Assembly: GCA_002256025.1 (NCBI GenBank)
Contig: NKIB01014603.1
Span: 1-42,156, forward strand
Length of the DNA stretch: 42,156 nucleotides
DNA from: Asterionella formosa
Taxonomy: Eukaryota
Reading direction: 5' to 3'
Position 1 is the first letter of the stretch. Every line of letters begins with the position of its first letter. The notes below the pieces were generated by a model. That model worked only from the letters and a program-made list of their open reading frames with translations. It made no database searches and was not told where the DNA came from. This document shows, piece after piece, positions 535 through 37,088 of this stretch. A program made the position numbers and the translations under genes.

Positions 535-561
535 AGTAGCCATACCTGGTGTTGGGCAATT

Positions 562-906
562 GTGAGGCCTAATGATTGTGATCAACTCAAGGCATCAGTG
601 GTCTTAATTGATGGAGTTGACCGGAGAGGGATCAAGGCTGTTCTGAGGATCCTTGATGAGACAGAACTGTGCACCTGCCTTGGCAAGAATAGTGCAGCTC
701 TGAAGAAATCAAGCAACGATTTTGTCAACAATTTTTTTCAAGTCATTGAGCTGTATGACTGTAATGAAAATGCTGCCAAAAGGGCAAAAAGCAACAATAA
801 TGACATTGCAGTTTGTTCATTCCAGCGTCTCATGGACATTCAGATTCTGGAACAGATGTTACAAGAACAGGACAAGCCTTCAAGTCCTTCAATCAATCTC
901 CATTAG
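562..906 (+). pseudogene. Second, convergent ORF of the pogo-like element (unknown function; 5' part removed by the Copia insertion)
   Basis: Translation matches ORF 18719-19003(-): LGKNSAALKKSSNDFVNNFFQVIELYDCNE vs LGKNIAALEKSSDRFVINFAQVIELHDCNE. Confidence 0.55.
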
Positions 907-915
907 AAGATTAAC

Positions 916-1880
916 TTACACTTGAAGTCTAGAAGTGTAGCCTGGGAGGAAGTAATCAACCTCAGTGCTGCAATTATTAATTGTATTGACAGAAAATCCT
1001 ACCATGTGGACAGTAAAATCATCCATAAGAATGCGAGTCATACGCTTGCTGCCATTTCCCAAAGCAAATTCATGCCAAATCTTTTCGATCCATTGTAAGG
1101 ATGACTGTACAAAACCTAGCTTTGGGTTGACAAACATATTTAATACTGACCAAAAAAGTTGTTGATTATTGACTAGTAATCCCAATTGCCTGGCAATGTG
1201 TCCATCCCTTGTTCCTGTAAATACAATGATTGGTGGCAACTTTCACCATTCATTGTCACACATAACAACACAGTGCAGTGATTCGAATTTCCTCTTGTTT
1301 GAAGCTCGAAGGTCCTTTCACCACGGTTTGACGAAGTCTTTGATAGAGACATGTCAAAATTGATGTTCATCTCATCAATATTGACACTGTTCCAAGAAAA
1401 AAATCCTAACGCAGCAATTTGATTGTTGATGTAGCCAACAAAATCCCGAATCTTCTCCTCATCCAATTGCCTTGTATTTTGGGTGACATGAGTCACAGGT
1501 CGGATGACGATGTCCTTACAGGCAAGCTAGCGCATGATCCGCTTTTCAAGTGCCTTCAGAGACACATTTGCATTCTCAGGTTGCCTCTTAGGCTTAACAC
1601 TGAGCATCCTAGTGGCGCAGGCCCTATCTTGAAGCCGCAACTGGTAGAATAGATTACTTAAGCCTTCAAAGTTAGCATTACTTTTTGTAGAGCAGCCCAG
1701 GTGAGCGCTTTTTTCATCTACACCTGCCTCTAATCTCCGCCACCACTGCCGGAACCACAAAAACCATTGCATCGTCCAGCATAGACATGCAAATCCGGAT
1801 CTTCTTTGGCTGAATGTAATATGCTCTGGCAGTCGCCTTGACATTATTGGGCTTGCTGTAGCTTGCTGTAGAACCAACAC
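916..1880 (-). pseudogene. Frameshifted pogo-family (DDE_1/CENP-B-like) transposase
   Basis: Fragments in several frames: THVTQNTR, NIDEMNINFDM (DET-like), CTVLLCVTMNGE, PPIIVFTG, ILMDDFTVHM, FLPGYTSRLQV. Confidence 0.8.
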
Positions 1881-2642
1881 AGATTTTCAAATCGTAGAAT
1901 AAGGTACAAACGCGTACACAACACTCTATAAACAGCTATTGAAGCCATCACGAAATTTGGGCTTGCCGGTTAATCAAAAATGGAAGTTTAATTCATCCTA
2001 GAAACCGATTGAACTTAAAACAATATCTCTTTTAAGGTGGTAATTAATGTTCTGGCTAGTTTATGGAGAAAATTTTGAAGCTGGTTTTTCATAATATTTA
2101 GCAATCAAAAAAGCAAGGTATAGTTTCTTGTATCCCCTCCAAATAAAATCAATCGTGGCTGTGTACATTGAGGGGTACAGGACGCAAGGTTTCACAGGGT
2201 GTTATTTGAAATTCCAACACCCCTATGCAGTATACAGATTACCAAGGCGAATAAAATCTGTTGAAACTGGTGGGCACCATAGAATGAAGCATGATGTCAT
2301 TCAACCATTACTATCCAGCCTATTCCCAACAGTTTTCTACACACCTGTTATTTCAGATTTTCGTACTAAGTAAGTCTAATTAAAATTATTGTTACCTACC
2401 AAGGCTTAATGATTAATCTTTTCCAAATATGCCTACTTTCAAGGTATTTTTAATAATAGTAACCTCATTTATTAAGCGCTTTAAAACTTCTCTATTGCTG
2501 GAGAGCTTCCTGGCATTGCCCGCCTTGGTGTTCTAAATTACTTTCCAACCCAGTATCAACCCAACAAACATGGTGACTTTGGGCGCTTGAACGCGGGGAA
2601 AAGGATGGATACACTCCCTTGAGTGAGAGTCGAACAATTTTG

Positions 2643-2697
2643 TTGTGCTGTGGTTGTGCTGCGGTTGTCCTGTGGTTGTCCTGTGGTTGTCCTGTGG
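2643..2697. repeat. 11-bp tandem repeat (TTGTSCTGYGG) x5
   Basis: Read directly: ttgtgctgtgg ttgtgctgcgg ttgtcctgtgg ttgtcctgtgg ttgtcctgtgg. Confidence 0.9.
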
Positions 2698-3450
2698 ATA
2701 ACATCAGTCTTGTGCAGAGATTATCTCCCTGATAATAATGTGGATAGCTTGGTTTGGACTTGAATCTGAGAATATTGTGGCATCAGTTCACTGGAATTCT
2801 GATCACTGTCCTTTTGCTGTGCTAATGAGATTTCGAAGTCCATCCGGAAAATCTCTGTTGTTCCTTTGTCTTCAACGATAATAGTTCTTGGTGCTTTATT
2901 TGCCCGGTTTCCTTCCTTTGGAAGCCATTCGGACTCTTCATCTTGTTTTTTTGCTGCAATAATGCTGCTTCTATTTTGAGGGAATATTATGTTGTTGTTC
3001 TTTTTGCCCGTGCAAGTTTGGCTGCATGCTCTTCTTACTTCTCTGCTTTACCAAAGTCTTCAAAGGAATGAAATTAGGAATGTCCCCAATCTCTTCACAC
3101 TAGTTCTCGTTCTCTCGATAGCGTTCACTATTGGATCAGACTCCTTGTTTGCGGATTTGGCTCCATTTATATTGTTTGCTTTCAGTTCTGGTTGGTCTCC
3201 TTTGATTTTCATATACTCTAATGTCTTGGTATGATCCGTTGTATAATATTCCATCATTTTTGATCATGAATCCACAGCAACCTGTTTGTTAAATGTGAAT
3301 TGTAAAAATCGCATTATCTACTGTCTATGAAAAGTAAAATAGAAACAATTACAATTGCTTTGTAGGACGCTATGAAAAAATGTTGTTGGGGATGGAGCAG
3401 GTAAAATGGACAGGACCAAAAAAGGTTGACTATAGCTGCACATTGATTTT

Positions 3451-4569
3451 CTAATTTCGACGTGGAGTTTTCAAATCTCCAAATACTTCTTCATACAAGT
3501 CAACTTCACCATTTGCAGACAAAGTCTTCATCAGAAGAGGCTGGAAAAAGTCTTCCCCTCCTGAGGTTCCAGATCCATGACCACGGTTGATCACAATGCC
3601 ACCCAAAAGAGTAATTTCTGAAATCTTGCTCCAGAATCCATCGCTAGCCTTAACCGTATCCACTTGAGATTGAAGAAGTTCATAAATGATTTCAAACATT
3701 TGAGTAGCCAGAAAAGCATCGACCTGTCCACCACCTTTTTGCAGTTCCACAGAAACTTGATCCCCAATCTGCTTTTGGAGCCTGCTGATAATATAATCTC
3801 CTTCTAAATCTATTCCGCTGTCAACTGCCTTCTTTTTTGATTTTATTCCATTGTATGCATCCACGACAGCTGCGCACGAAGGTGTGGCGTCGGTCTGACC
3901 AATTCGTTCCACCTTTCCAACCTGGCCACCTTCGGATATGCCCACGTGAGGTCCAAAGAGGATAAGGAGCTTGCCATTTTCAGGACAGTGACTGACGAAA
4001 TTACTAAATCCCAATGTTCCGGCGAAAGGAATGCCGCCTTGTCCACCAAGATTGTAAATCCCAACACTTTTGGTGTCTACAAACACGTTGGCAAGATCTC
4101 TTACAAGGCTTTGCGGGGAATTGTTGATTTCATCAGGGCATAAGGACGCCGCGAATATCACATTGTACTGCCTGTAATTTCTTTTACGAAGAGCCGAAAG
4201 GACCCGCAGAGTGATGACAGAGCTTTGCAGGGAGCCGGGAAAGTAGCGTTTGAGTGAGACATCAAAGGCGTCACCGGACACCTTCGCAGCAAAGGCAACG
4301 TTGGGCCCTAGAAAGGCGGCTAGCACGGCTGATATTGGACTAACGATACGCGCCGTACGAGCAGGCACTCCAATATTGGATAAAAGAATAAAATTTCGAT
4401 CGTCTGTATCAAGTGACAGTGGCGCAATGTCCCGAAAATTATTCAAAGTGTGCAATTGACGGCCCTTGAAAATTGATGGGGCAAATCCCGTCGAAAAAAC
4501 AACGAGACCAAGCAGGAGATTCAAGACAAGCCAAATGGTCTGTGTAGGAAGCGAACTGCTGTGAGTCAT
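3451..4569 (-). CDS. Theta-type carbonic anhydrase / LCIB-family protein, single domain, plastid (probably thylakoid-lumen) targeted
   Basis: Intact 372-aa ORF. LCIB/theta-CA motifs SLCPDEIN, LGGQGGIPFAG, FGPHVGIS..G.VGKVERIGQ, PSCAA and LLGGIVIN supply the Cys/His/Cys metal ligands. The signal peptide ends at TG|FAP, and a second hydrophobic segment ends at AFA. Confidence 0.92.
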   Translation of the reverse strand: MTHSSSLPTQTIWLVLNLLLGLVVFSTGFAPSIFKGRQLHTLNNFRDIAPLSLDTDDRNFILLSNIGVPARTARIVSPISAVLAAFLGPNVAFAAKVSGDAFDVSLKRYFPGSLQSSVITLRVLSALRKRNYRQYNVIFAASLCPDEINNSPQSLVRDLANVFVDTKSVGIYNLGGQGGIPFAGTLGFSNFVSHCPENGKLLILFGPHVGISEGGQVGKVERIGQTDATPSCAAVVDAYNGIKSKKKAVDSGIDLEGDYIISRLQKQIGDQVSVELQKGGGQVDAFLATQMFEIIYELLQSQVDTVKASDGFWSKISEITLLGGIVINRGHGSGTSGGEDFFQPLLMKTLSANGEVDLYEEVFGDLKTPRRN

Positions 4570-4982
4570 TCTTCTGGCTGCTTATACAGTAGTCTGATGC
4601 GAATACCCTGTTTTGTTGTATCAACTGCCTACCGTCATCACGACGATGTACGGTGCGTAGGTTCCAGTTACCTGGTAACTACTGTATGTAGCGTGAAGGC
4701 AAATTAAAGTGCAATGCATTTTTGAGAAAAAATGGACTTCGAATCCTGTGGAATAAAAGTTATTACCAGGAAGGTCCGGTAATCAGCGCATTGAGCGCAA
4801 TATTTACTAAAAATACCACATACCGGTAGCGGTTTCAACCTACCGGTACTTCATTGGAAGTCTGACCGGCTCACCAATTCTGAAATGATGAAAAATCTCA
4901 AAATATTTCCATTTTTTTATATTACCTGTAACCGTTATAAAGTTTCAAATGGAAAAGCGCTGCCACCTTTCACAGCAGAATC

Positions 4983-9952: not shown

Positions 9953-10140
9953 GGAGAATGGCTTAATTGGTTAGCAAACCTTGCTCATGAAGTGGGGGGT
10001 TCGATTCCTGCATTCTCCCCCTGTCTTTCGTTTATGTAGTCCCTAGGGTTCCAGGGGGTGAGACTGACAAATAGACAGGTCCTATTGTACCATACAGATG
10101 AATAAAACCGGTACCAGGTACCAGGTACTAATTGGGCACA
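9953..10140 (+). mobile_element. tRNA-derived SINE, copy 1 (3'-truncated)
   Basis: A box TGGCTTAATTGG and B box GGTTCGATTCC, followed by the family body (CCTGTCTTT..TGTAGTCCCTAGGGTTC..GACAGGTCC..GAATAAAACCGGTAC). Confidence 0.8.
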
Positions 10141-10424
10141 CTTCGAAATTTAAAAAATATTATACCATGTGTATTATAACATAAATTATTGCACTCATAA
10201 CCCCAAAATTTGGTCAACACAAACACTAATTTTTTTACAGTTAGAAATAACAGTGCAAAATATAGAAATATGTTTATCCATGTTTGACTACATATGATTT
10301 CCCAGAATATTTCATGACTTGCGTGCTCATACCCGAAATGGCTTGCTCTCGCCAAAATAGGTACCTGATGGTAATATGCATGTATATGTACACATCAATC
10401 AGCCTTATGTATATTGTTCGTCAT

Positions 10425-11149
10425 CCTCTGTTTGCCCTCCTGAGGTTCAATACGCTAAGCAAGTATTCCGAAAAATAGAGGAAAGAGCAGATGCTAGTGG
10501 TGAAGTTGATTCTACGGACCTTGGGATAGAAGATGGCAACAATGTCAATGATGAATTCATGGTACTTGAGGACAGTCAAGACAATGCTGAAGCGGTTGAA
10601 ACTTCGGAAAGCTATACTGCAAATGCCTCTGATTTCATTGAAGCAACTCCTGCTCGTCCTGAAGCAACTCCTGCTGTTTCCGCTGGAGCAACTGTTGCAA
10701 TATCTGCTAGTGCAAGATTTCATTGTCCTATGGTATCCCCTTGGCTCAGGGATAAACCTTTGTCAAACAGTCTTGACAAAATATTGGCTCTAGTTTCAAC
10801 ACAATTGATTCAAAAAGCGGAAAAGAATGATAATATTCCAATGCAGATGCAAATGCAGCAACAGCAGCAACAGAACGTGATGAACATCATGATGATGTCA
10901 ATCATATCATCCATGTTGAACCATGGGACATCACAAACAACCACCTCAACTACCATTGTCGAAACCATTCAGGCCATGATGAATTAAATGATAGCTTCGA
11001 ATATGCTATCAATGCAGCAATTATTGCAATCTCCAAGCACAACAACGCCAAGTAAAAATGCACAACCATCTTCATCTGCATCCATAGAATTTCAAACCCC
11101 AAATGATAATGATGGTGACAACAAAAGCAGTAGTAGTGATGATGAATAA
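10425..11149 (+). pseudogene. 5'-truncated DUF6818-like (transposon accessory-type) protein remnant
   Basis: CPPEVQYAKQVFRKIEER followed by an acidic linker and a Q/M-rich tail. Coding-like sequence continues past the TAA ending at 10987. Family call is from memory of the CP..V..AK....I motif. Confidence 0.4.
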
Positions 11150-11906
11150 GTTAAATGAAGATAGTAAATCTAAGTCTTTAAAACATTACTCTATGACTAA
11201 AAATGCATATCTGTTAGCACTTCTATGCAAATAGGGCATGTAAACCGAAGCAATTTGATTCTGACCGACTTTACTGGCACAAAAATTGTATAGTAAAACA
11301 ATCATTAGGAGTACAGACACATGTACATATATTTTGTACATAACCTGATACATATCACATGTCTTCAACCTGTACTCGATTCACAACACACAACAGAACT
11401 CAACATATGTATGCCTTGTGAATAGTAGCTGATCCATTTCTCCTTACAAACACCTATTGAATACTTCTTTAGCTGCACACAAGGATTACCTAAAATGCAT
11501 AAGCTCATTATGTTCAACAAATACTACTGGTACCGGTATACTGGCTTGTAGGAGTCATACCTGGTGCGGAGTACGGTAGGAGTGGTCCCTGGATGCTAGC
11601 TACGTATATTTTCAACGTACGTAGTAGGAACCATCGCCCGTCTTCTACCGCAACTCCACTGGCACCTGGTACCAGGGCAGGGCAGTACCAGGTACCGCCA
11701 AGCAAATGGTATTAAATTTCGAGCAACAAAAAAAAGCGAGCGAAGGGAAATCAACCGCCTTGCTTGTCGTGGTATGTATTTTTTTGAACTTGGCACAAGT
11801 TCAACACTTCAAGGAATCTTTCTCTTATACCGGGTAGTGGAACAGGTTAACCGGTAAAGAACCCAACGTATAGAGAATAGGTATCAGTGACGAACAAGTT
11901 GATGCC

Positions 11907-14306
11907 ATGCATTTCTCGGCTCGTTCAGCGAAGGTGCTGATGTGTCTATTTCTCCCTCTGTTTCTCCTGATATCGTCCCAACTTGTTGGTTTCCTCTACC
12001 TATTCCAGATCGCCATTGAAATCAATGACGATGATGTATGGACAAAATCTTTCAGGCGAGAAGAAGAGTACCCCATGACCATTGTACTGCTTCGATCTAT
12101 AGGGAACGCGCTGCCTCCACGACATCAAATTTCTCAGACGCTAGACAATCTCAATTTCACATTGACTTACGAAAAGTCGTTTCCAAATGTTATCAAGCAC
12201 TGGGTTCTCAACCGTTTCGTGGAAAAGGAAGTGGAACGACAGGTAGTCGAGCTGTTGGATCAGTATAGGCAAAACTATACTATCATCCCTTTTGACTTGA
12301 AAGAATATTCAGAACTGAAACTCGACTTTGATTTATTTGAACCCGGGGGCCAGCTTGATTATGTTCACGACATCAAGTATTTCAGGAATGACATGGATCA
12401 CAAAATGTTCAAGCAAGCCATTGAAGTGGAGAAAAATCTTTACGTATGTAACGTTAATGGCGCACGGAATAAAATGATCGACATTGGACTATCGATGGGA
12501 GCTACATGGATTCTTCCATGGGACGGAAACTGCTTCATCACGAATTACGCCTTTTGGTACATACAAAACCAGCTTGCCAAGGAGAAGGGAAAGTATGTCG
12601 TAACTCCTACACATAGGGTAGTTGGCGAAAATTCCCAAATTCTTGACTCGAAATACCGACGGGAGCCTTCGGAGGAGCCAATGATCAGTTTTCGGAAAGA
12701 CGCTGTCGGCAGATTTCATCCTAGGTTATGGTACGGTCGACGAGACAAGGTGGAACTACTCTGGAGAATGAATGTTTCCGGGCCGTGGGACAGCTGGTCG
12801 AATTTTTCAGTTTGGGAACAAGAGAAGTTGTTACTTCCTCGGTTATCGTTGCTGACTGATAGTGGCGGGGGAAATGTGTCAAAAGTAGGATGGACATACC
12901 GTCTGAATTCTGGAAATCCCCATTTAGAAGGTTCTGTAAACAACTCCAAAAGAATGCTTGCTCGAACAGAAAGCGTTACTTTGATGTTCGACAAACTTGA
13001 TTACAGGGTTGTAACTGAATTATTTGGATTCTCAGAGAACTCTCTTCTTTTCTATAACGAAAGCTCACTAGCTGAAGATCGCCGCCTCTTCAAGTCCAAG
13101 GATCCTCAGATTTCATCCCTGCGAGCTCAATTACTGCAACTTGCTGACCACTCCCTTTCCTTTGGTCCTTGGTCCGTCATGGATAAGCCAAAGAGTAGCT
13201 GCTCGCTGAGTAATAATTGTCATGACTACTACAGCTGGCAACCATACGTTTGGATACTTCGAGGAAAGGAAGTTAAGAAAACTAAATACGTTTGGCGTGA
13301 CTCTGTGATGTTACCTGCCACTTTGTTTAACGGAATCGCTAGTCAACGTTTTGACAGAACTCGACTTTGTTATATGCAGTACAATACCACTACCTTGACG
13401 TTGGCTTATTTCATGACTGGGAATATGACATACGCGTCCCATGCAGCAGAGGCAGTTCGAACATGGTTCATCAGAAATGAAACAAGGATGAATCCGCATA
13501 TGCAATATGCTCGAGTCTACCATTGGATTGCAAACGAAACTGAATCAAATGATGGCATCAGAGAGATGAAGGATGTCTACTATTTTCTCGATGCCGTTCG
13601 AATTCTACGGCAGGCGGGAACCCTTTCTGACGAGGATCAACTGGCGCTGCATGAATGGTTCACACTTTATTTATTCTGGCTCGAATCCTCACGCAAAGGA
13701 AGGAACGAATATACAGCCCCGAACAATATTGGAGTTTACTTCGACATTCAGATAGTCTCAGTGGCAGCCTTTGTAAACGACACAAAGACAATGTTATGGT
13801 ATTTGGATCGATCTGTCTCTCGCCTAAAGACACAAGTGAACCAGAGTGGGGCGATGCCGTGGGAACTTCGTCGAGCAAATTGCGAACACTATCAGCTTGT
13901 CGCCCTTCAAGGCTGGTTCACGTTGGCCAGAATTGGCAAGATTGTTGGGCGCAATTTATGGGATGCATTTCCGGAGGTAGTAGATGGTATGCATCTTTCG
14001 GCACTTTGTCGTGCGGCCTACTATGCTATTCCATTTTTTCGACCGAGAGAAGAATGTCCTGGCAACAAGCGGCCGGAGAACCCAAGACGATGGTGGCCAC
14101 TATGGTATGAAGCTCAACTCAATTGTCCGGGTCTACCTACGGCGAATGGAAACGGGCTATCGCCGCTGAATTCTGATTCGAATGGTGGCGAGTTCCTCAA
14201 ACCTTTCAAAAAACCTCCACCTACGAGTCGTTTCAGCATGCCAAGTATGTTTCATCCATATGATGGCATCGCACCCTTCTGGAACCTTGGTCTTGCTGGC
14301 AGCTGA
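11907..14306 (+). CDS. Type II membrane protein: N-terminal glycosyltransferase-like domain plus C-terminal alginate-lyase-like (PF05426-type) domain, paralogue 1
   Basis: Intact intronless 799-aa ORF with an N-terminal TM anchor. Motifs: IGNALPPRH, NVNGARN, WILPWDGNCF, GPWSVMDKP, HDYYS, FDRTRL, RTWF...TRMNPHMQYA, NNIG, ELRRANCEHY. Confidence 0.88.
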   Translation: MHFSARSAKVLMCLFLPLFLLISSQLVGFLYLFQIAIEINDDDVWTKSFRREEEYPMTIVLLRSIGNALPPRHQISQTLDNLNFTLTYEKSFPNVIKHWVLNRFVEKEVERQVVELLDQYRQNYTIIPFDLKEYSELKLDFDLFEPGGQLDYVHDIKYFRNDMDHKMFKQAIEVEKNLYVCNVNGARNKMIDIGLSMGATWILPWDGNCFITNYAFWYIQNQLAKEKGKYVVTPTHRVVGENSQILDSKYRREPSEEPMISFRKDAVGRFHPRLWYGRRDKVELLWRMNVSGPWDSWSNFSVWEQEKLLLPRLSLLTDSGGGNVSKVGWTYRLNSGNPHLEGSVNNSKRMLARTESVTLMFDKLDYRVVTELFGFSENSLLFYNESSLAEDRRLFKSKDPQISSLRAQLLQLADHSLSFGPWSVMDKPKSSCSLSNNCHDYYSWQPYVWILRGKEVKKTKYVWRDSVMLPATLFNGIASQRFDRTRLCYMQYNTTTLTLAYFMTGNMTYASHAAEAVRTWFIRNETRMNPHMQYARVYHWIANETESNDGIREMKDVYYFLDAVRILRQAGTLSDEDQLALHEWFTLYLFWLESSRKGRNEYTAPNNIGVYFDIQIVSVAAFVNDTKTMLWYLDRSVSRLKTQVNQSGAMPWELRRANCEHYQLVALQGWFTLARIGKIVGRNLWDAFPEVVDGMHLSALCRAAYYAIPFFRPREECPGNKRPENPRRWWPLWYEAQLNCPGLPTANGNGLSPLNSDSNGGEFLKPFKKPPPTSRFSMPSMFHPYDGIAPFWNLGLAGS

Positions 14307-15019
14307 TTGTGATTCGACACAGGATCCCTGCTTGCACTTTCGAAATCTCATACTTCTTTTGTCAAGCATCCCTTTCGGTCCATGGCCTTTTAGCAGGAGA
14401 AAGTGAGCAGCATGAAAATTAAGAAGCTTATCTTCTCAATTTTTCATAACTTTAATGAGGTACCGTGCCTTCCTCGTTACATTCTATTGAGTTTCAGTCT
14501 CGTCACGTGATGCAAAATAGAATGAATATTTGCTGCAGTGATGGAAATAGGGTTTGGTATTATGATGGGAACCAATGCTCTTATCTCCTCCGCATCATAC
14601 AAGTATGCAACAATCTACGTTCGCGAAGTAATTGTTTCTCTGGTCTTTTCTGGATAGACTCTACCAACCACCATATTTTGTATTAGGGGTACCATGGCTG
14701 GCTATATACATTCATCAAGGTACTTGGTAATCATGCAACATTTTCTACCGAACAAAACTGATACCATACACTGGGAATCCGGGAAAGTCCAAATCTATCC
14801 CTATTCTTTGAAACTCGTTCGTGCAGGTAGGAATGCCCTCATCATGGTCACTGTCAGTAGCCTGTCAGTGTCATGGTAGAGGCCGACCTGGCATGCATAT
14901 GAAGGGATCAGGTTTATGACTAGACCTAGTAAATAGGGAGTCTTATGGTTGGAACTCAAGGTACCAGGACCAGGTACAACCGGCTACTAGGTATGGTCAT
15001 CAACCCAACACCAGTCAAG

Positions 15020-16200
15020 GTCATGATATGAATAGTATTCCCACTCATTTCAAGATGCTCCTTGTACAAGGTAGTAACTTCTGCTTGCTTTTACTTCCAT
15101 TTCGACACATAATTCACTCCTTGCATGACAGCATGGCTTCTTGAAACTATGAGATGATCTATCTAACAGCAAACAAATAGTACCATTGAATTTTCTGGGT
15201 TACATTCCCAACTCTTTAAGCCTACATTGGCAGACTGTAGCACTGCGCCGACACTTGTCATTTATCATGTCCTCCTAGGACACTTCCACTCCCTTTGCTT
15301 ACTCATCCTCCACTCTTATTCATGCCCAACATGCTCTGTGAGACCTGCTGGTCACTCCACAGCAAAAATCAGTCAAATTTACCAGCTCCATCCTGCGAAA
15401 ACAAATTTTGCCTACTTTCTACACCTGTCACAGCAATTTCCTCAAACAAATGCTTATTCCTCTTCCCATGACTTTTCTGTCCCTCTCTACTACTTCCAAT
15501 TCTCTCATATTCACCTGGAAGACCCCTAGACTCTCTGGAAATTCCAAGAAATTGTTTTCTATTGCTCACACTCTCTCCCATCAGACACCAAAGAAGGCAC
15601 TAGCAGGAATATCACTTTCCTCTGTTCTCCCTACTGCATTGACAATCCAAGAGTCTTCTCTCTTGACTTGCTCCAAATCCACCATTGGCTAATCTACCAT
15701 CGGCTTCATCATTTCATCAAGTATTTTAGATTTATTTATTGTCTAAACCTGTCACCAGTCTAATTTCAGTCAATTACACCTCAGAACAAGTCGATGCCAG
15801 CACTGTCAAGCAAGACCTCCCTTCCAGCAAAAATATGCTTCCATCCCTTCTTTATTTCTTCTATCCTTTTGATTACCAGCAATTAAAAAGTACTTCAGTA
15901 CGCAAGCGTCAAGAATTCCTTTAGCTATAAATTTATTTTGGCTGCAGCATTTCATTCATCCAAAGCATATTGATACCTTTTTATCGATTCTAGCTTCATG
16001 CTATTTTTCCCACTCTCACCACTCTCTCTTTCTACTGATACCATGCATCAACTATCTCTTAAAGTATTTCTCCAACCCTGATTCAAAGCTTTTTTGTCAA
16101 CTCCTGTTGTCAGTGCTATCACCTACTGCTATTCTTACTTCTCCCCTCACTCATTACCACATGTTATCTGACTATGTACACACCTATTAGCTACAGTTAC
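15020..16200 (-). mobile_element. Possible highly decayed non-LTR retrotransposon fragment
   Basis: Purine-rich, stop-riddled coding-like sequence on the minus strand, with a WKCPRR segment reminiscent of LINE C-terminal zinc knuckles. Weak evidence. Confidence 0.25.
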
Positions 16201-16560
16201 AAAAAAATAAAAAAATTCTCCTCTTATTCTAAGAGCCACATGGGCAGAACTTGGTAGCTTGTACTAGACTTGATTGTTGATACCACTACTGTAAAACCCG
16301 CTGTCCTGAATGTACACAGCCAAGATTGATTTTACGTAGATAGAAGGGCTACGACACCATGCCAGCCCTTTTTAATTGCCAAACATTATGAACAAACCAT
16401 CTTCAACACCATTTTTTACTTAGTCTAAAACATAAATAAAATCATCAAAAGAGATATTGTTTTAGGTTCAAACAGTTTCTGAGATCAATTGAACTTCCAT
16501 TTTTGGTGCACTGGCGCTCCCAAATTATGCACTACAGCTGCTGGGATCATGATAGTAGAT

Positions 16561-16793
16561 TTTTTTAATTAAATTTTATAGTACATTAAAGCTATTCAAT
16601 AATTGCACTCGGGCCCACCAAATAGATGGACACAATTAGTACCGGTTTTATTCGTCTGTACGGTACAACGGGACCTGTCTTTTCGTCAGCCACACACCCC
16701 AGAACCCTAGGGACTAAATGAAAAAGACAGGTGGAGAATGCAGGAATCGAACCCGCCACCACAGTGGGTGTGCTAACCACTAAGCCATTCCCC
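16561..16793 (-). mobile_element. tRNA-derived SINE, copy 2 (full length)
   Basis: A/B boxes, short A tail, and a perfect 20-bp TSD CTGGGATCATGATAGTAGAT at 16541-16560 and 16793-16812. Confidence 0.92.
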
Positions 16794-17162
16794 TGGGATC
16801 ATGATAGTAGATATTGAGGTCAGCCAGTTAAATTTCGCGTTATTATCAACATGACAGCCAAGAAATATCGATGCATCAGGCAGAATACGCATGGTACTAT
16901 GCCGAAAAATATCAAGGGCACCACCAAAGCATTTACAGTCCATCACAATCAGATCCATAGCTTGAAGTGAGTGTTGCTGGATGATGAATTGCTGGGGGTT
17001 CAGGCAGTGGTGCTGGCCAAGGTTCCCATTCAAGAAGAATTATTCCTTCAGAGACAGGTATTTCTAGAAAAAGCGCTCAGCACCTAGGCCGCTCCCCCAA
17101 AAGTACTGCTGACTTCGAAGAGTTGAAGGTTATATTTTACTAGTAGTGGCTACAAGATACTA

Positions 17163-17404
17163 TGGGAACGGCTTAGTGGTGAGCACACATGTTGCGGTGG
17201 CAGGTTCGATTCCTGTATTCTCCACCTGTCGTTCTTTCATGTAGTCACTAGGGTTCTAGGGTGAGTGGCTGACAAGGAGACATGTCCCATTGTTGTACCA
17301 TACAGACGAGTAAAACCTGCACTAATTGTGTCCATTTATTCATTTATTTTGGGTATGAGTGCAATTATTGGATAGCTTTAACGTACTATAAGATTTGATT
17401 TTTT
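17163..17404 (+). mobile_element. tRNA-derived SINE, copy 3 (full length)
   Basis: A/B boxes and a 17-bp TSD GTGGCT(A/C)CAAGATACTA at 17146-17162 and 17405-17421 (one mismatch). Confidence 0.9.
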
Positions 17405-17465
17405 GTGGCTCCAAGATACTAGGGCCTCTACTACTACCATAATGCTCAGTGTTGAGCTGAAGAGG

Positions 17466-18250
17466 ACCCCCAGGGAAAGAAAATGGTGTGTCTCTGAAGG
17501 CACTTTGCCCTAAGCTGCTTGGGTGATCTAATCCAAACGTGTTCAGGGCATATGAAAAGAGTGAGCTATGTTTGCTTGCTGGGTAAATTTCATCTTGGAA
17601 AGGGGCATTTGATAACACTTGAGGCTGCATGGACCATTATGACTTGTTACCTTTCTTGGCTTACACTTGAGGGTAATTTTGTTCATTCACTAATCTAGCT
17701 TTGTTAAATCTTATGGGATACAGCTTACTAGAGCATAAGTCTTGGTTTCGTCTAGGTGTCCCTTTAACCATTAGGGAATCAATATATGAGACCCTACTCA
17801 AGATCAGACATTGTATTGAGTGGTCTGAAGGGCTTTTCAACCCAAATCTTGGTTCGATACTGATATATTCATGCAATGGATTGAAAATGTTTGGAAACCA
17901 TTTACTCCACTAGTAAGCAAAGGAGGAGATCCAACTCAACTCACAATGAATGACTTTTCAATCCATAAGGTTTGACAGTGTGTGGATGCATTTAAAAATT
18001 GCAGAACTGAAGTGGACTACATTCTTCCAGACTACATTCCAGACGTAGTAGGGGTCAAAAATTGTTTAAGGACTACATCAGGGGATACTGAGAAGATCAA
18101 ATGGTCAACAAATTGGACAACAGAAGAGGAGTCTAAAGGCATGACATTGGTTGCTCTGTGATACTCCAGAGTCACAGCACAAACAATCACCAATATCTGG
18201 AGGAGCATTGGGTTTGGGGGCTTTGCTAGTGAGAACAAGTCAATTAGTAA
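17466..18250 (-). mobile_element. Possible non-LTR retrotransposon RNase H-like fragment
   Basis: Not homologous to pogo copy 1. The minus strand has KGHLDETKTY, resembling the VKGHQD RNase H motif. Many stops. Confidence 0.3.
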
Positions 18251-18261
18251 AACATTTGATC

Positions 18262-18498
18262 TTTTTGTCAATTAAATCTTATAGTACATTAAAGCTTTCC
18301 AATAATCGCACTTGTGCCCAAATATATGGAAAAAATTACTAGTACCGTCTTTATTCGTCCGTAAGGTACAACGGGACGTGTCTCCTTGTCAGCCACTCAC
18401 CCTAGAACCCTAGTGACTACATGAAAGAACGACAGGTGGAGAATGCAGGAATCGAATCTGCCACCTCATGAGGTGTGCTTACCACTAATCCATTCCCC
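18262..18498 (-). mobile_element. tRNA-derived SINE, copy 4 (full length)
   Basis: A/B-box head and family body. Degenerate TSD AAACATT(T/C)GATC at 18250-18261 and 18501-18512. Confidence 0.88.
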
Positions 18499-18659
18499 TT
18501 AAACATTCGATCATTTGATTTTACTTCAAAACGTAGTGGAACAATCATTATTGTCGTTTAGATTAATGATAGCAAAGTCTATTAAAATAAAAAAACATTT
18601 TGAAATGAAGCAAGAATGATAGTTTTGAAAATGTTAAATTTCTAATAAGATTATTAATG

Positions 18660-19110
18660 TTCTCATGTAGATTGATTGAAGGACTTGAATTTTTGTCTTG
18701 TTTTTGTAACATCTGTTCCTAAATCAAAAAGTCCTTGAGACGCCGGAATGAACAAACTCCAAGGTTATTTTTGCTTTTTGCCATTTTGGTAGCTTTTTCA
18801 TTACAGTCATGCAGCTCAATGACTTGAGCAAAATTGATGACAAACCTGTCACTGGATTTCTCCAAAGCTGCAATGTTTTTTCCAAGAAAGCCAACCATGC
18901 ACAGCTCTGTCCCGCCCATCAAGTACCAGGACAGCCTTGATCCCTGCCTGATCACCTCCATCAATAGTATGCACCACTGAAGCATTGAACCTGACACATT
19001 CATTGGGCCTCACATTTGCCACACAACAGGCATGCTACTCACGACTTATTCCATTGGTAGTAACTCTGGGCCAATGATTTCGCCATGATGAATGTCATCC
19101 ACATTTGTCA
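18660..19110 (-). pseudogene. Second, convergent ORF of pogo-like copy 2
   Basis: Homologous to 562-906. The additional upstream part reads VDDIHHGEIIG..TNGISRE*HACC across a frameshift and a stop. Confidence 0.55.
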
Positions 19111-19208
19111 TGTAGTTTGTTGCTGCATGCTGTATATGTGAAGATACTTCACTTGTACCAGTAATATACAAAAATGCGAATCAATAAATAGAATTTAAGT
19201 TTCACTTA

Positions 19209-20872
19209 GAGCATCGCCACCGCATCGACCAAATACCAAGCCAATTGAAGTTGCGGGTCATTACACGTCATGATGCGTTGTGTTGGTCGAAAAAGCAAAA
19301 ATATTTTAGCCACCGCATCGACCAAGACCAAATATGCTTTGGTCTTGATCGAGGATGACCCCCTTATCGACCAAATATCAGGTATTTGGTCGATTAGACT
19401 CCGACTGTAGCCAAATAAAAGGAGCATTTCTATTGGTTTAGATTGTGGCTCGCGCCGGCAACATAACGTCAACTATTTAATTGATCCACAAACGCTTACA
19501 ATACACATTTACCTTACTCTCTTGATGTAGACAAATAATAAACTTAAGTACAAAAACCTTTGAATAATACCGGCAGCTATCTATAAAATGTTGTCCCTCG
19601 AGTCTTTGACGATCCCAATAAGATATCGTCATCCATTGTTGTCAAAGCAGCATGATACATGAGAAGGAGCAGCAGGAGCCGCAGGAGCAGCAGGAGCAGC
19701 AGGAGCAGCAGGAGCAGCAGGAGCAGCAGCCAACGAGGATGATTCATCGTTGGTTTCAGACAAAACCAAAGTTGGATTATTTTGGCGCTGTCAAGAGCAA
19801 CAATCGATAGCGATATGCGAGTTTCGTCAAGGCAGCATTGTTCCTCATGTACTGTGATGTGTCATTGTTGGCAGACTGCTGCATGTCCCTGGCTAGTATC
19901 GATATCTTCTTCCCTTGCATGCCATGGGTATATTGTGTAACATTTTACTGTGTCGATGGTTGATTAATCAGCCAAAGAATTTCAAAAATGTATCCAAGAG
20001 AGTTGTGCCATTTAATGAAGGGTTTCACGCCAATAAAGGCAATGCCATTTAATGGAAAAAATGAAGGAGGGATTAGATGTGATCCAATTGCATCTCAATA
20101 ATTCAAGTGCTTCCAGTACTCCACTGTCCCATCTGTCATCCACCACTGATGATTTTGATGTAGTAGATGATTCCAAATGAAGGAAAAATAATATAGATAA
20201 CATGTCATTGCTAGTATGATTGATTAGAAAGCTAGGCTATCGCTCTAGCTAATTGGAAAAACGGAAGGTTTTTCTATTCTAGAATACCAATATACAAATG
20301 CATAGTCATATTAGTTTTTAATGGGCAGTTTAGATAGGCGTAGTACTAGCTGCGTAAGAATAATGAAAAAAAAGGAAACGTGGTGCTACAACTATTCAAA
20401 AAACTACAGGTACAGACTACCAGTAGCTAAGCGACTTCCTTTTATCCTCCGCCTCCTCCTTCGGTTGCCTTTTCTCGTTTTCTTCTTGTATAGGTATGTT
20501 TAACTGGTATGTACGGAAGTGTAGGAGCGGTCGTCATCTGATGAGTCGCTATCGTTGCTCATTTCATCAGGCAGATACATATGGATGAGTACCCTGGTAT
20601 GCTACCACAAACCACGCAGTGCGTCCCATCATTTTCTTATTGGTAGTAATCGGGTTTATTAATATAACGATACACATGTATAACAGTCTAGTGCTATTTC
20701 TATTCGCTAAAAGTTTTGGCGCGAGGTTTGACTATTCTAGGATTTGGTCGATGCGGTGGGAAAAAATATGAAAAATTCGACTATTGATAAAAAATTTCTC
20801 AACCAAGTCACGTGTATTGATATTTTCAACTGCAATTGGCTTTGGTATTTGGTCGATGCGGTGGCGATGCTC
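19209..20872. mobile_element. PIF/Harbinger-type non-autonomous DNA transposon (1664 bp)
   Basis: TIR GAGCATCGCCACCGCATCGACCAAATACCAA(A)GCCAATTG at both ends. TTA TSD at 19206-19208 and 20873-20875. Subterminal repeats CCACCGCATCGACCAA at about 19310 and about 20745 (inverted). Confidence 0.9.
19665..19730. repeat. (GCAGGAGCA)n 9-bp tandem repeat, about 7 copies (poly-APA on the minus strand)
   Basis: Seen directly inside the Harbinger-type element. Confidence 0.9.
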
Positions 20873-21035
20873 TTATATCAAGCTCTTTTAAGACTACTCA
20901 TTTGCGAGACCGCGTAGCGCTTCTTGGCACTTCCAGCCCTTGATGTTCATGTACATATGTATACCGGTACTTAATTACCAACCCAGGGTCATCCGAACAA
21001 ACGTCGTGACTTCGGGCGCTGGTGTGCAAGGATCA

Positions 21036-21213
21036 GTACCTGGTACCTGGTACCGGTTTATCCTCTGTATGGTACAGCGGGGACCTGTCTTTTTAATTCA
21101 TTAGCCGCACCCCCGGAACCTTCGGGACTACAAAGAAAAAGAAAGACAGTCGGAGAATACAGGAATCGATCCTACCACCTATGAAGGTATGCTAACCAAC
21201 TAAGCGATCGTCC
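21036..21213 (-). mobile_element. tRNA-derived SINE, copy 5 (diverged, 3'-truncated)
   Basis: Reverse complement reads GCTTAGTTGGTTAGC..GGATCGATTCCTGTATTCTCC..TGTAGTCCC..GACAGGTCCC..TAAACCGGTACCAGGTACCAGGTAC. Confidence 0.8.
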
Positions 21214-22440
21214 TGCAAATTAAAAAATAGAATACTTCAATGCAATGGATGTGGCAGTTTTTTTAATAGCACAGATAATATATTTGGGAGTGTTGCGCCA
21301 GATGAACAAAGGGCGGATGTACTACTTTGTAAGCAACTATGGGAGACAGGACACCGGGTTTACGGTGCTACCACTACATAGCGATTCTAAGTAACTTTGA
21401 CACAATTACCATCTTGTATGTTTCGTCTTTCTCCATAGTATGTAGACCGTGTGGGATTGTAAGTAAATGTAGGAGTAAATTTGATGCGAACCGTAGAATA
21501 CTATAATAGCGAGCCAAGAATAACGCTAAGTATGCATCGTAAATGGCTTTTTGAGTTCATTGCTAAGTAATGTGTTCCATTCCCTAACTCCGGGTTCAGT
21601 CCGTGTCTTTACTCCGGGTTCTGCGGCAGTCGAGTTGCGCTTAGCTGACTATATATGGCAGATGGCTTGGCAATGCTTTAGACCGCTTCTCTGAATTGGC
21701 TTCAAAGAATTGTGCGCTTTGCCCCTGTACTATTTCGATGAAGATAACCTTGTGTGGTTGCTCTCTTCTCCTCTTGCATGAGCTGCTGGCTCTTGGTTGT
21801 TCAATTCAACTCTAAAAGCTAGATCTTAATAGTTGCATTGTCACTTTTTATGTCTCAGCTTCGACTCCTTCGATTCGGTTGCAAGATCATTTGTAATACT
21901 AGCTCGTCACTTGGCATCGCCCCCATTGCGTCCATCCTTGGACCAAAATACCGGTAGATCTGAACAGCATGATTGTACAGTCGAACATACGACATGTTCA
22001 GTAGTACTGGTATGGCAGTACACTGGTAAATAAAGTCTACCAGTAGACGTCAACAGTAAACGATTACCGGTACCGGTAGCTGGTGAAACATACCAGGTAC
22101 TAGCTAAGTACCACAGTCTGTATACCTTACTGTAATTGGTAGAATTAAACCCAAGTTGAATTTTCCTGTAGGCCTCTGGTATATGTATACTGGGTCATTT
22201 CAATACTGGCACGGTATTGATCTGAAAATACAAGTGGAAGGACCGTGTTACAACAGTATTTGCCAGTAGAAAACCCGGTTTAACTGTGGGGGTTTAATTA
22301 TTTGGTTTAATGAAACCTTGTAGGAACGTGCTACATGTAGTACTAGCTAGTACTACTCCAGTACTTCTACGCTGCTAAAAATTAAACCCATCACCATGAT
22401 GATTGATGGTGGGAGTGAATACTAAAATAAAGAGGTTTGG

Positions 22441-26276: not shown

Positions 26277-26485
26277 GTACCCGTACCCTGGTACCAGGAA
26301 CCAACCAGGTATGGTACCTGGTACAGGTAGATTGTTTTCTCTCATTCTTCTGGGCGGAGTACATAAGGATACGTGTATAACCATCATACGAGTACATATT
26401 ATTTCGAGATTGGCTGCTTCAGATGGTTTCATCACGATGTCCAGGCCAACTACAAATTTGTTGACTTTGCCTCCTTTCAGTTAAC

Positions 26486-28858
26486 ATGAAGCAATCGTTC
26501 ACGCTACTGGTAATCGCTGTGCTGATTTCTTTCCAGCTTGTTGGCTTCCACTATCTTTTCCATCCCCTCGTGGAAATCTCTGACGATCGAGAGACAAAAC
26601 CGCACACGCATCAACGACAAGACAGGCAGCCCATTACCATAGCGCTGCTCCGAGCTATAGGAAATGCACTGCCGCCCAGGCATCAAAGTACGCAAACAAT
26701 GGATAACCTCAATTTCACATTGACCTACGAGAAGTCGTTTCCTAATGTCTTCAAACACTGGGTTCTGAACCGTCTCGTGGACAAGGACGTGGAACAACAA
26801 GTGGTGGAGCTGTTGGAACGTCACGAGCAAAACTATACTATCATCCCTTTTGACTTGAAAGAATATTCAGAACTGAAGCTCAACTTTGATTTATTTGAAC
26901 CCGGGGGGCAGCGTGATTATATCCATAGCTCCAAGTATAAGAAGGAAAAATTCGTTCTGTTTGAACAAGCCGTTGAAAGCGCAAAGACACTTTACGTATG
27001 TAACGTGAATGGTGCTCGCAATACAATGATTGACATTGGACTTACAATGGGAGTTACATGGATTCTTCCATGGGACGGAAACTGCTTCGTCACCGATGAT
27101 GCTTTTCTAAATTTGCAAAAAGTGCTTGCCAAGGAGAAAGGAAAATATTTCGTGACCCCTGCTCATAGGGTGGTTGGCGAGAATTCTCAAGTTCTTCACC
27201 CTGAGTACCGACCAGCACGTTCAGAGGAGCCAATGATAAGTTTTCGGAATGACGCTGTAGGCAGATTTCATCCTTTGTTATGGTATGGGCGAAGGAATAA
27301 AGTCGAGATGCTTTTAAGGTTGAAGGTTCCCGGTATTTGGGACAATGCATACAAATTTGCAAAATGGGAAACCGAAAAGTATGTCCCTCCTCTATTATCA
27401 CCTCTAACCGATATTGGTATAGGTAATGTATCACAGTTAGGATGGTCGTTCCGCTTGAATTCTGGAAATCCTCATTTAGAAGTGCTTGGGAAACAATCCA
27501 AACGACAGCTTGCGAGGACAGAAAGCGTTACACTCATGTTCGAAAGACTAGATGACAAGGTTGTAAAGAAATTATTTGCATTCTCAGAGAACTCTCTTCT
27601 TTTCTATAATGAAAGCTCACTAGCTGAAGATCGCCGTCTCTTCAAGTCCAAGGATCCTCAGATTTCATCTCTGCGAGCTCTATTGCTGCAACTTGCTGAC
27701 CACTCGCTTTACCTAGGACCTTGGTCCGTAATGGACAAGCCCAAGAATAACTGCGCATCAAGCAAAAACTGCCATGACTACTTCAGCAGGCATCCCCATA
27801 TTGTAAGTCGGGTTGGAAAAGAAGGGAAGAAGATACTTGTTTCTCAAGAATGGACAATAGTTCCTGATGCTATGCTTGACGGAAACTCCAGTCACTTGTT
27901 TGACAGAACTCGACTTTGTTCGATGCAGTATACAACAACAACCTTGGCATTGGCTTATTTTGTGACTAGGAATATGACTTACGCCTCTCGCGCAGCAGAG
28001 TTAGTTCAAACGTGGTTCATCAGAAATGAAACAAGGATGAATCCGCATATGCAATATGCCCAAGTCGAACCTGGACCCAAGGTCAAAAGTAAACCACCTC
28101 CTCAAGGTATCATAGAGATGAAGGATGTCTACTATTTCCTCGACGCTGTTCGAATTCTACGGCAGGCGGGAACCTTTTCTGACGAGGACCAATTGGCGCT
28201 GCATGAATGGTTCAGGCGTTACTTGTTGTGGCTCGAGGCTTCTAAACAAGGCAAGAAAGAATATTTAGCCATGAACAGTAATGGAGTATACTACGACATT
28301 CAGATAATCACAGTGGCAGCCTTTGTAAACGACACAAAGACAATGTTATGGTATTTGGATCGATCTGTCTCTCGCCTAAAGACACAAGTGAACCAGAGTG
28401 GGGCGATGCCGTGGGAACTTCGTCGAGCAAATTGCGAACACTATCAGCTTGTTGCTCTTCAAGGCTGGTTCACGTTGGCCAGAATCGGCAAGATTGTTGG
28501 GCGCAACTTTTGGGATGCATATCCGGAGGTAGTAGATGGTATGCATCTTTCGGCACTTTGTCGTGCGGCCTACTATGCTATTCCATTTTTTCGACCGAGA
28601 GAAGAATGTCCTGGCAACAAACTATCTCCAAACGCAACACGATGGTGGCCACTATGGTATGAAGCTCAACTCAATTGTCCGGGTCTATCTATGGCGAATG
28701 GAAGTGAGCTATCGGTGGTGATTTCTGAGTCGAAAGGTGGCAAGTTCTTGAAACCTTTCAAAATTGCTCCTCCTTCAAGCCGTTTTAGTATGCCCAGCGT
28801 GTTTCATCCGTATGATGGCATTGCACCTTGGTGGAACCTAGGCCTCTCTGGCAGGTAA
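26486..28858 (+). CDS. Glycosyltransferase-like plus alginate-lyase-like type II membrane protein, paralogue 2
   Basis: Intact intronless 790-aa ORF, colinear with 11907-14306 and carrying the same motifs (NSNG in place of NNIG). Confidence 0.88.
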   Translation: MKQSFTLLVIAVLISFQLVGFHYLFHPLVEISDDRETKPHTHQRQDRQPITIALLRAIGNALPPRHQSTQTMDNLNFTLTYEKSFPNVFKHWVLNRLVDKDVEQQVVELLERHEQNYTIIPFDLKEYSELKLNFDLFEPGGQRDYIHSSKYKKEKFVLFEQAVESAKTLYVCNVNGARNTMIDIGLTMGVTWILPWDGNCFVTDDAFLNLQKVLAKEKGKYFVTPAHRVVGENSQVLHPEYRPARSEEPMISFRNDAVGRFHPLLWYGRRNKVEMLLRLKVPGIWDNAYKFAKWETEKYVPPLLSPLTDIGIGNVSQLGWSFRLNSGNPHLEVLGKQSKRQLARTESVTLMFERLDDKVVKKLFAFSENSLLFYNESSLAEDRRLFKSKDPQISSLRALLLQLADHSLYLGPWSVMDKPKNNCASSKNCHDYFSRHPHIVSRVGKEGKKILVSQEWTIVPDAMLDGNSSHLFDRTRLCSMQYTTTTLALAYFVTRNMTYASRAAELVQTWFIRNETRMNPHMQYAQVEPGPKVKSKPPPQGIIEMKDVYYFLDAVRILRQAGTFSDEDQLALHEWFRRYLLWLEASKQGKKEYLAMNSNGVYYDIQIITVAAFVNDTKTMLWYLDRSVSRLKTQVNQSGAMPWELRRANCEHYQLVALQGWFTLARIGKIVGRNFWDAYPEVVDGMHLSALCRAAYYAIPFFRPREECPGNKLSPNATRWWPLWYEAQLNCPGLSMANGSELSVVISESKGGKFLKPFKIAPPSSRFSMPSVFHPYDGIAPWWNLGLSGR

Positions 28859-31491: not shown

Positions 31492-32595
31492 ACTTCTGGC
31501 TTCAGCTAGTTTTGCGATTCAGAATTGACGGGTGAGATCAACGAACGATGCTACGCCCGTATCTTTCCAGGTTGTGCAATACGTCGGTGCAGCTACAGTC
31601 AGTTGAGTGAGGTTGTTGCGCCTGGTGCGTATTGTCTTATAGCTAAGGGGGTGTCGCAGAGACCAAACTGCCAATCGATGAGAGGGACGTGTTGCTGTGG
31701 TTGGTGATACAGTAAAGGGTGATGGTTTGGTGACGGGATTTGACAGAGGTATGAAACCAGCATGGTAAATCTGGTACGGTACCAGGTACCGGGTACCGTA
31801 TTATTGCTGAGATTTGAAGTTTTGGAATGCTGATGACGTACCTGATGATGCAAGCACACCCAGCAGTAGTACCTGGTACCTGGCACCAGGTACCGGTATG
31901 TTTTCTTTGGGTTCCTATAACTACATTATCCATACATGAGTACATGAAAAATTAACAATTTGCCCTTGCTTATTGGCTTGATACGCACCATCTACATACC
32001 GGTATGTACGGAGTACTCGGCATATGGATCGCTCCCACACATATCATACTCCCTCAATTTTTAATCATCATAAGGACATTTATACCGGTATACCAATAAT
32101 TGTTCCTTAGTATAATAATTACCGCTAACGTATAAACCATGCGTGCATACGTACGTGTGAAAATATGTAGGTAGTGTTTGAACACGAGTTGGGCGATTAC
32201 GATACCAGGGGTACCTGATAGTAAGTAGAGCACCAGAAGAATCAGGGAGGAAATTGGCGATGTGACGAGGATTCAAAAATACTGCATAAGGAACTCCTCC
32301 GTGTACGATGTTACATACTATCGTTGCGTTTACACATAGTTAGTATGTACAAATTAGGTTGTGACAAGAAGCTAGAAGATATGGTACGCACTTGGCGTAC
32401 ATGTAATGCATAAAAGAAACAGATGTGCTCCCAATGATAAATACCAGTACATGTCGTATGTAGAAATCCGACAGGTGTCAGGTGCAAGACATAGTTTTCA
32501 CACCATGACATGTGCTCCGTTGTTTTTGTATGAGCTATACTGTACAAATTAAGTGAAGATACCAGGTACCAGGTGGCGGAAAGCGATGTAGTTGA

Positions 32596-37016: not shown

Positions 37017-37088
37017 TCCGACATAGTATAGTGGCTAGTATCCCCGCCTGTCACGCGGGAGACCGGGGTTCGATTCCCCGTGTCGGAG
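37017..37088 (+). tRNA. tRNA-Asp (GTC)
   Basis: Acceptor stem TCCGACA/TGTCGGA plus discriminator G. Anticodon stem CCCGC/GCGGG with loop CTGTCAC. T arm CGGGG-TTCGATT-CCCCG. Downstream T run. Confidence 0.97.

What the first reader, a model, noticed from the sequence alone, without database searches (positions are those of the whole stretch)
9953..21213. tRNA-derived SINE family with TSDs, five copies in 11 kb
Seen: an element of about 235 bp at 9953(+), 16793(-), 17163(+), 18498(-) and 21213(-), with Pol III A/B boxes and a shared unique body. TSDs are 20 bp (perfect), 17 bp (one mismatch) and about 12 bp (one mismatch). Known: variable-length TSDs plus a tRNA head are hallmarks of LINE-mobilised SINEs, and to my knowledge SINEs are poorly documented in diatoms. 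Inference: a probably undescribed, abundant SINE family. Four of the five copies landed inside one dead DNA transposon.
Basis: partly seen in the sequence, partly recalled or inferred. Interest (0 to 1): 0.8.

Follow-up and report, generated by a model that had tools for sequence, protein, structure and literature searches.

The report
Diatom tRNA SINEs sharing LINE tails
These short repeats are real jumping elements built from an alanine tRNA; they end in the same sequence as a group of larger retrotransposons in the same diatom genome, which most likely copied them, a familiar arrangement in animals and plants but barely described in diatoms.

Summary
Real. All five copies carry a head derived from this genome's tRNA-Ala(AGC) plus a shared ~95-bp core, but they are not one 235-bp family. 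Three are family A (~235 bp). The copy at 21213 is family B (~345 bp, different tail), split by a MITE. The copy at 9953 is recognisable only for 162 bp. The three stated TSDs are confirmed; genome-wide, 39 of 62 independent A sites have one (control 2 of 3782), mostly 18-19 bp. Four copies do lie in one pogo-like relic. The B tail matches the 3' UTRs of decayed RT-RNase H LINEs (10 of 40 LINE ends). The A tail matches a second group of the same LINE clade, but only modestly. The one young poly(A) LINE matches neither. Verdict: a SINE2 superfamily with swapped LINE-derived tails, a new member of a known kind. No intact partner LINE or Pol III transcript was shown; Repbase, Dfam and SINEBase could not be searched. 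This scan already reported the same SINE and LINE tail on other contigs of this genome.

The parts
9953..10114 (+). Copy 1: tRNA head plus core only; the following ~75 bp is at best a degenerate tail; no TSD found
   Evidence: 84% to the A consensus over 162 bp; genome search with 9953-10200 gave matches ending at query 154-165 in 38 of 39 other hits; TSD search negative
16561..16793 (-). Copy 2: full-length young family-A SINE
   Evidence: 97% to consensus; 735 first-look candidates
16732..16793 (-). tRNA-Ala(AGC)-derived head of copy 2, with A and B boxes and a ~12-nt internal deletion relative to the tRNA
   Evidence: Rfam tRNA 26.2 bits, E 0.072; tRNA-Ala(AGC) best of 23 genomic tRNAs for all three family consensuses
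16541..16560 (.). TSD of copy 2 (partner 16793-16812), 20 bp perfect
17163..17404 (+). Copy 3: full-length older family-A SINE; TSD 17146-17162 / 17405-17421
   Evidence: 81% to consensus; removing it restores collinearity with the second pogo relic
18262..18498 (-). Copy 4: full-length older family-A SINE; 12-bp TSD 18501-18512 / 18250-18261
   Evidence: 84% to consensus; TSD
20873..21213 (-). Copy 5, main part: family-B SINE (same head and core, ~180-bp LINE-derived tail); 5' TSD 21214-21232
   Evidence: 81% to the B consensus over 336 bp; family alignment
19192..19205 (-). Copy 5, last 14 nt beyond the MITE, followed by the 3' TSD at 19175-19193 (16 of 19 identical)
19209..20872 (.). MITE with ~45-bp terminal inverted repeats and a TTA duplication (PIF/Harbinger-type by recalled hallmark), inserted into copy 5
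   Evidence: relatives in other loci; very high read depth
16288..21367 (+). Decayed pogo-like (DDE_1) DNA transposon hosting copies 2-5 and the MITE
   Evidence: terminal repeat pair; both ends in L123; weak DDE_1 hit E 0.083 at 17787-17975; 63-79% to a second relic at 535-2205
2453..3263 (-). Headless non-autonomous LINE-like element (family E1, 5'-truncated) ending in the family-B tail; outside the finding
   Evidence: 71% to the B tail over 167 bp; family search; extent

Best explanation
A superfamily of non-autonomous retroposons (SINE2 type). The head is this diatom's tRNA-Ala(AGC) with an internal deletion and supplies an internal Pol III promoter (sequence shown; transcription inferred). 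A ~95-nt core is shared. The 3' tail differs by family and is taken from the 3' UTRs of a resident clade of long LINEs that encode RT, RNase H and a C-terminal zinc-finger-like motif (shown for B; modest for A; unresolved for C). The LINE protein most likely binds a terminal stem followed by an A-rich motif, nicks the target, primes on the T-rich RNA end and reverse-transcribes it in place, leaving a 16-20 bp duplication (inferred from TSDs, 5' truncations and the shared stem). Tail exchange let one head-core module ride different LINE subfamilies at different times: B and C are older, A includes a young burst.
For: Head origin: tRNA-Ala(AGC) scores 72/80.5/65.5 against the A/B/C consensuses, next tRNA 55/52.5/49.5, among 23 tRNA genes. 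TSDs in 39 of 62 independent A sites versus 2 of 3782 mismatched pairs; 29 of 37 among copies at least 88% identical; mode 18-19 bp; first base T in 24 of 39. B: 6 of 27 versus 0 of 702. B tail matches 10 of 40 LINE 3' regions (scores 111-162, antisense maximum 77; BLAST 62-71% identity in 9 of them) and 2 of 21 regions; one of these (C1668) is collinear from RT to tail. The LINEs: weak RVT_1 and RNase_H hits, Atlas clusters mostly Bacillariophyta at 0.95-0.96, ~2000-aa relatives with endonuclease, RNase H or zf-RVT hits. A tail versus 11 LINE ends: six score above 98% of 3000 random genomic 95-mers, best 0 of 3000. Terminal 6-bp stem 95% paired across 14 LINE and 2 SINE-B ends, covariation score reached by 1 of 500 shuffles. 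Headless tail-B elements have the same kind of TSD: 11 of 28 versus 1 of 756. LINE copies 88-96% alike overlap in age with young A copies.
Against: No intact partner: longest open frames at the matches were 355 aa and 273 aa. The A-tail match is short, AT-rich and needs a gap of about 15 nt; in the 40-region test only 3 sense scores beat the antisense maximum, one at an unrelated place. The C tail did not beat its antisense control. The stem is mostly invariant: one of six pairs changes on both sides, and 'pairs with a change on both sides' did not exceed shuffles (475 of 500). TSDs of headless elements (11-18 bp) run somewhat shorter than those of family A. A run of five T follows the head in 33 of 37 young A copies, while 20 of 21 tRNA genes have T4-T6 just downstream, so full-length Pol III transcription needs read-through. 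No Pol III transcript could be shown: only assembled contigs were available.
Confidence: 0.85

Rival explanations
1. Family A is a SINE but is mobilised by the young, abundant poly(A)-tailed LINE of this genome (L035/L101) through loose 3'-end recognition; its likeness to the RNase H LINE ends is ancestral or chance.
For: This is the only LINE with a long open frame found (1008 aa, contigs 98-99% alike), and family A has young copies (32 of 62 at least 93% identical).
Against: It ends in poly(A) and its 3' end does not resemble any SINE tail (88%, 62% and 97% of random sequences score as well). The SINE ends in T-rich, not A-rich, sequence. Its own TSDs were not measured, since its contigs are collapsed.
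Confidence: 0.08
2. The partner is an RTE-clade LINE, as for T-tailed plant SINEs.
For: T-rich end and TSDs starting with T match the RTE signature in PMC6007223.
Against: That paper gives 7-15 bp (mostly 10-12) for RTE TSDs and a T stretch near position -10; here the mode is 18-19 bp and no T excess appears at -10. No RTE-like copy was identified, though RVT_1 scored only 150 of 224 candidates and PF14529 found none.
Confidence: 0.04
3. Not retroposons: tRNA pseudogenes, a MITE family, or copies spread inside larger repeats or segmental duplications.
For: One insertion has been amplified inside another repeat (nine of L063-L075 share flanks); four window copies sit in one transposon.
Against: Unique flanks at 62 sites, long variable TSDs, 5' truncations, a fixed 3' end and no terminal inverted repeats.
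Confidence: 0.02

Closest known systems
tRNA-derived SINEs with LINE-derived 3' tails (Repbase class SINE2/tRNA; e.g. plant Au-like SINEs with RTE LINEs, PMC6007223)
   Same: tRNA head with A/B boxes, unrelated body, 3' end shared with a LINE and able to form a hairpin, T-rich end, TSD starting with T.
   Different: Partner is an RNase H-bearing diatom LINE clade, not RTE; TSD mode 18-19 bp against 10-12 bp (RTE) or 13-15 bp (L1) in that paper; no T stretch at -10; TA preference just before the element's 5' end.
SINE superfamilies with a shared central domain and exchanged tails (CORE, V, Nin-DC, MESC, Snail; PMC4758252, PMC5786205)
   Same: One head-core module combined with different tails; internal T run followed by C, as noted for mollusc Vhc SINEs.
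   Different: Sharing is shown within one genome only; the core was not compared with the known domains (no library available).
Reported diatom SINEs (13 putative SINE pieces, 1,454 bp, in Phaeodactylum, PMC5859163; SINE class in Cyclotella cryptica, PMC7466962)
   Same: Same host group and class label.
   Different: The passages read give no head, tail, TSD or partner; this family has hundreds of copies. Sequences could not be compared and the Cyclotella supplement could not be read.
Ambal clade of non-LTR retrotransposons (listed in Repbase, PMC5753468; its diatom origin and RNase H are recalled, not read)
   Same: Long diatom LINE ORF with endonuclease, RT, RNase H.
   Different: No named reference sequence was available, so clade membership is untested.

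Membership tests
SINE2/tRNA | 5' head derived from a tRNA, with A and B boxes | tested here: met
SINE2/tRNA | Short, non-coding, interspersed at many unique sites | tested here: met
SINE2/tRNA | Variable-length TSDs, 5' truncations, no terminal inverted repeats | tested here: met
   39 of 62 versus 2 of 3782; truncated copies with TSD
SINE2/tRNA | Transcription by RNA polymerase III | not testable with these tools
   Only assembled contigs of RNA runs were available
SINE-LINE pair with shared 3' end (family B) | Tail homologous to a LINE 3' UTR | tested here: met
   10 of 40 LINE 3' regions, sense strand only
SINE-LINE pair with shared 3' end (family A) | Tail homologous to a LINE 3' UTR | tested here: inconclusive
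   Six of 11 ends above 98% of background; weak in the 40-region test
SINE-LINE pair with shared 3' end | Conserved 3' stem-loop | tested here: inconclusive
   Stem 95% paired but mostly invariant; family A was not in that alignment, its tail folds into a matching stem in single-sequence folds
RTE-mobilised SINEs | TSD 7-15 bp, T first, T stretch near -10 | tested here: not met
   T first met; length and T stretch not met
Ambal clade (partner LINE) | RT phylogeny placing it with Repbase Ambal elements | not testable with these tools
   No named references; hits unnamed
Central-domain SINE superfamilies (CORE, V, Nin-DC) | Core homologous to a named domain and conserved across taxa | not testable with these tools
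   No SINE library; no other diatom genomes searchable

The most novel reading that the evidence does not exclude
This is the first SINE superfamily driven by the diatom RNase H-bearing (Ambal-like) LINE clade, with a clade-specific insertion signature (two nicks 18-19 bp apart, T at one, TA at the other). One tRNA-Ala head-core module captured tails from several LINE subfamilies and outlived its drivers, and the same LINEs also produced headless non-autonomous elements, a trait PMC5786205 reports for only four LINE clades.
Probability: 0.5. Interest if true: 0.62.

Novelty: new member of a known kind. Interest (0 to 1): 0.48.

Why it matters
SINEs were long thought rare in unicellular eukaryotes, and the diatom reports I could read are counts from annotation pipelines. 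Here the head, tails, TSD signature and likely partner are all identifiable. That extends the SINE-LINE shared-tail model to stramenopiles and to a little-studied LINE clade, and gives a testable RNA element and target geometry for that clade's enzyme. Hundreds of datable insertions could also serve as population markers. The architecture itself is conventional.

Tried and rejected
Young poly(A) LINE as tail donor: no match. RVT_1 and PF14529 searches missed the partner clade; it was found through the headless tail-B element at window 2470-2640. My first guess that the upstream frame of that element was a restriction-like endonuclease domain found no support (one search gave one unnamed 204-aa hit) and was dropped. 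My interim view that only three copies lie in the transposon was reversed. RTE signature: not met. Consensus fold of the core gave no pairs; the A sequences were cut before the closing strand, so this is uninformative. Whole-element fold z = -1.99 only. The automatic TSD search had a scoring bug and was replaced, which left out 6 of 34 copies with no locatable end. Atlas with an 80-aa piece: no usable hit. PDB: none. Viral contigs: 0. Metagenome scan: 4 loci, no new host information. RNA runs: contigs touch the copies but cannot show start, end or strand; runs with small shares were not used. Depth arithmetic (about 800 and 400 copies) is not a copy number by the tool's own warning.

Full report
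Observation. Self-comparison finds five related stretches at the stated positions. Copies at 16793(-), 17163(+) and 18498(-) align over about 235 bp and are 97%, 81% and 84% identical to the family-A consensus; the copy at 9953 matches only its first 162 bp; the copy at 21213 matches a different consensus over 336 bp. The window is contig C14603 of a 68-Mb assembly. The best named relatives of its theta carbonic anhydrase come from diatoms, and the element occurs mainly in freshwater runs (15 runs hold half or more of its words).

Families. A search with copy 2 gave 735 first-look candidates, 40 scored, all 90-100% identical. A search with copy 5 gave a second family, B, about 345 bp, with the same head and core but a different ~180-bp tail. 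A third, C (~215 bp, 5 copies), turned up in flanks. Median divergence from consensus was 6% (A, 40 sites), 14% (B, 27) and 13% (C, 5); these samples are the best hits and lean young. All three heads match tRNA-Ala(AGC) best among 23 tRNA genes taken from this genome, with about 12 nt missing between the D arm and the anticodon region. The 23 are a subset of the 62 matches plus the window's own tRNA.

Retroposition marks. Of 95 full-length A hits in the fetched loci, 62 were independent sites (one is a metagenome contig). 39 of 62 had a TSD, against 2 of 3782 mismatched pairs; 29 of 37 among the better-preserved copies. Lengths ran 10-22 bp, mode 18-19; 24 of 39 began with T. T was enriched 19 and 18 bases before the element (21 and 20 of 39), and T and A at the last two bases (21 of 39 each); uncorrected p values were 0.001-0.009 over 45 positions examined, so the base preferences are suggestive. 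No T stretch lay 10 bases before the TSD. PMC6007223 (abstract, first two text parts and section 15 read) gives 7-15 bp for RTE and 7-18 bp for L1 TSDs, and that T stretch for RTE-driven SINEs. 5'-truncated copies with TSDs exist.

Setting. Copies 2-5 lie in one decayed pogo-like transposon at 16288-21367: its terminal repeats pair, a weak DDE_1 hit lies inside, and L123 holds both ends in a short derivative. Copy 5 was later split by a MITE (19209-20872, TTA duplication); its last 14 nt and a 19-bp TSD with 3 mismatches lie beyond it. Contigs of a second study cross a junction of each of copies 2-5, so those insertions are not private to one sample; only part of the joints table was shown.

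Partner. The only LINE with a long open frame ends in poly(A) and shares nothing with the tails. A headless B-type tail at window 2470-2640 led to longer repeat families of 0.8-1.4 kb and to a decayed LINE 3' half in L283. Two protein searches from this clade gave 65 and 115 matches. The copies show weak RVT_1 and RNase_H hits; Atlas neighbours are mostly diatom clusters, 18-22% of members with RVT_1; 3222 relatives exist at E up to 0.001, the long ones near 2000 aa, 4 of 7 scanned carrying endonuclease, RNase H or zf-RVT hits. I fetched the 3' regions of 40 of the 115 matches. Ten match the B tail on the sense strand only. Another ten carry a second type of end (0 antisense) that resembles the A tail at two blocks separated by a gap; against 11 LINE ends, six beat 98% of random genomic sequence and three did not beat 94%. 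In the 40-region test the A signal was weak and the C signal absent. Both LINE end types and SINE B close with a 6-bp stem before an A-rich motif; it is 95% paired but varies on both sides at one pair only. Headless elements carry 11-18 bp TSDs in 11 of 28 cases. Several LINE pairs are 88-96% alike, an age overlapping young A copies. No copy had a long intact frame at the matched sites. 'Ambal' is my recollection for such diatom LINEs; PMC5753468 (one passage) only lists the name.

Mechanism. Shown: tRNA origin, interspersion, TSDs, truncations, LINE-derived B tail. Inferred: Pol III transcription, tail recognition, target-primed reverse transcription, and the A partner. One tension: five T follow the head in 33 of 37 young A copies, and 20 of 21 tRNA genes are followed by T4-T6. 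The run is followed by C, which PMC4758252 (passages) cites as favouring read-through in yeast, and it lies in a predicted hairpin.

Literature. Searches. None of the listings or passages seen describes a diatom SINE with its head, tail or partner. PMC5859163 (passages and section 12) reports 13 putative SINE pieces in Phaeodactylum; PMC7466962 (passage) reports a SINE class in Cyclotella, and its supplement, which may bear on novelty, could not be read. PMC5786205 (passages) has no mention of diatoms or Ambal. Earlier notes of this scan, read after my own reading was formed, report the same SINE, swapped tails and LINE tail on other contigs; they are not independent support.

Verdict. A real, abundant SINE2 superfamily with LINE-derived tails: conventional design, poorly charted host and partner clade.

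Noticed in passing
L063-L075 (e.g. G000:C10562:4636-4788), L189: One family-A insertion, with its TSD, has been multiplied inside another repeat: nine loci share the same flanks.
   Followed up: partly
L079 (minus strand, ~820) and L117 (minus strand, ~1118): A fourth element starts with the same first ~20 nt but continues with two B-box-like motifs in tandem; possibly a dimeric tRNA-derived family.
   Followed up: no
L035, L101, L168 (G000:C14560, C15294, C14311): A young, high-copy LINE (1008-aa open frame, poly(A) end, contigs 98-99% alike) with telomere-like AACCCT repeats downstream in one contig; may be subtelomeric.
   Followed up: partly
L109 (G000:C9266, 642 bp): A contig whose frame reads like human LINE-1 ORF2 (resemblance recalled): likely contamination of the assembly.
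   Followed up: no
L222-L238, L292-L299: Family E2: ~0.85-1.4 kb non-autonomous elements with a fixed 5' end, internal tandem repeats, the B-type tail and TSDs; one copy (L225) has an inverted 5' part.
   Followed up: partly
L139 (~1581-1730): A 3'-truncated A-type head-core inserted into a B tail with an ~11-bp duplication, suggesting priming inside the RNA.
   Followed up: no
window 11874-14306 and 26465-28858: Two ~800-aa alginate-lyase-domain paralogues, 81% alike; the first is covered by poly(A) RNA contigs.
   Followed up: no
window 3451-4581 and 29560-31518: Theta/LCIB carbonic anhydrase paralogues, the second with two tandem domains.
   Followed up: no
window 535-2205 (-) and 10140-11600: A second pogo-like relic related to the host transposon, and a separate high-depth repeat right after copy 1.
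   Followed up: partly
window 37017-37088: An intact tRNA-Asp(GTC) gene.
   Followed up: no
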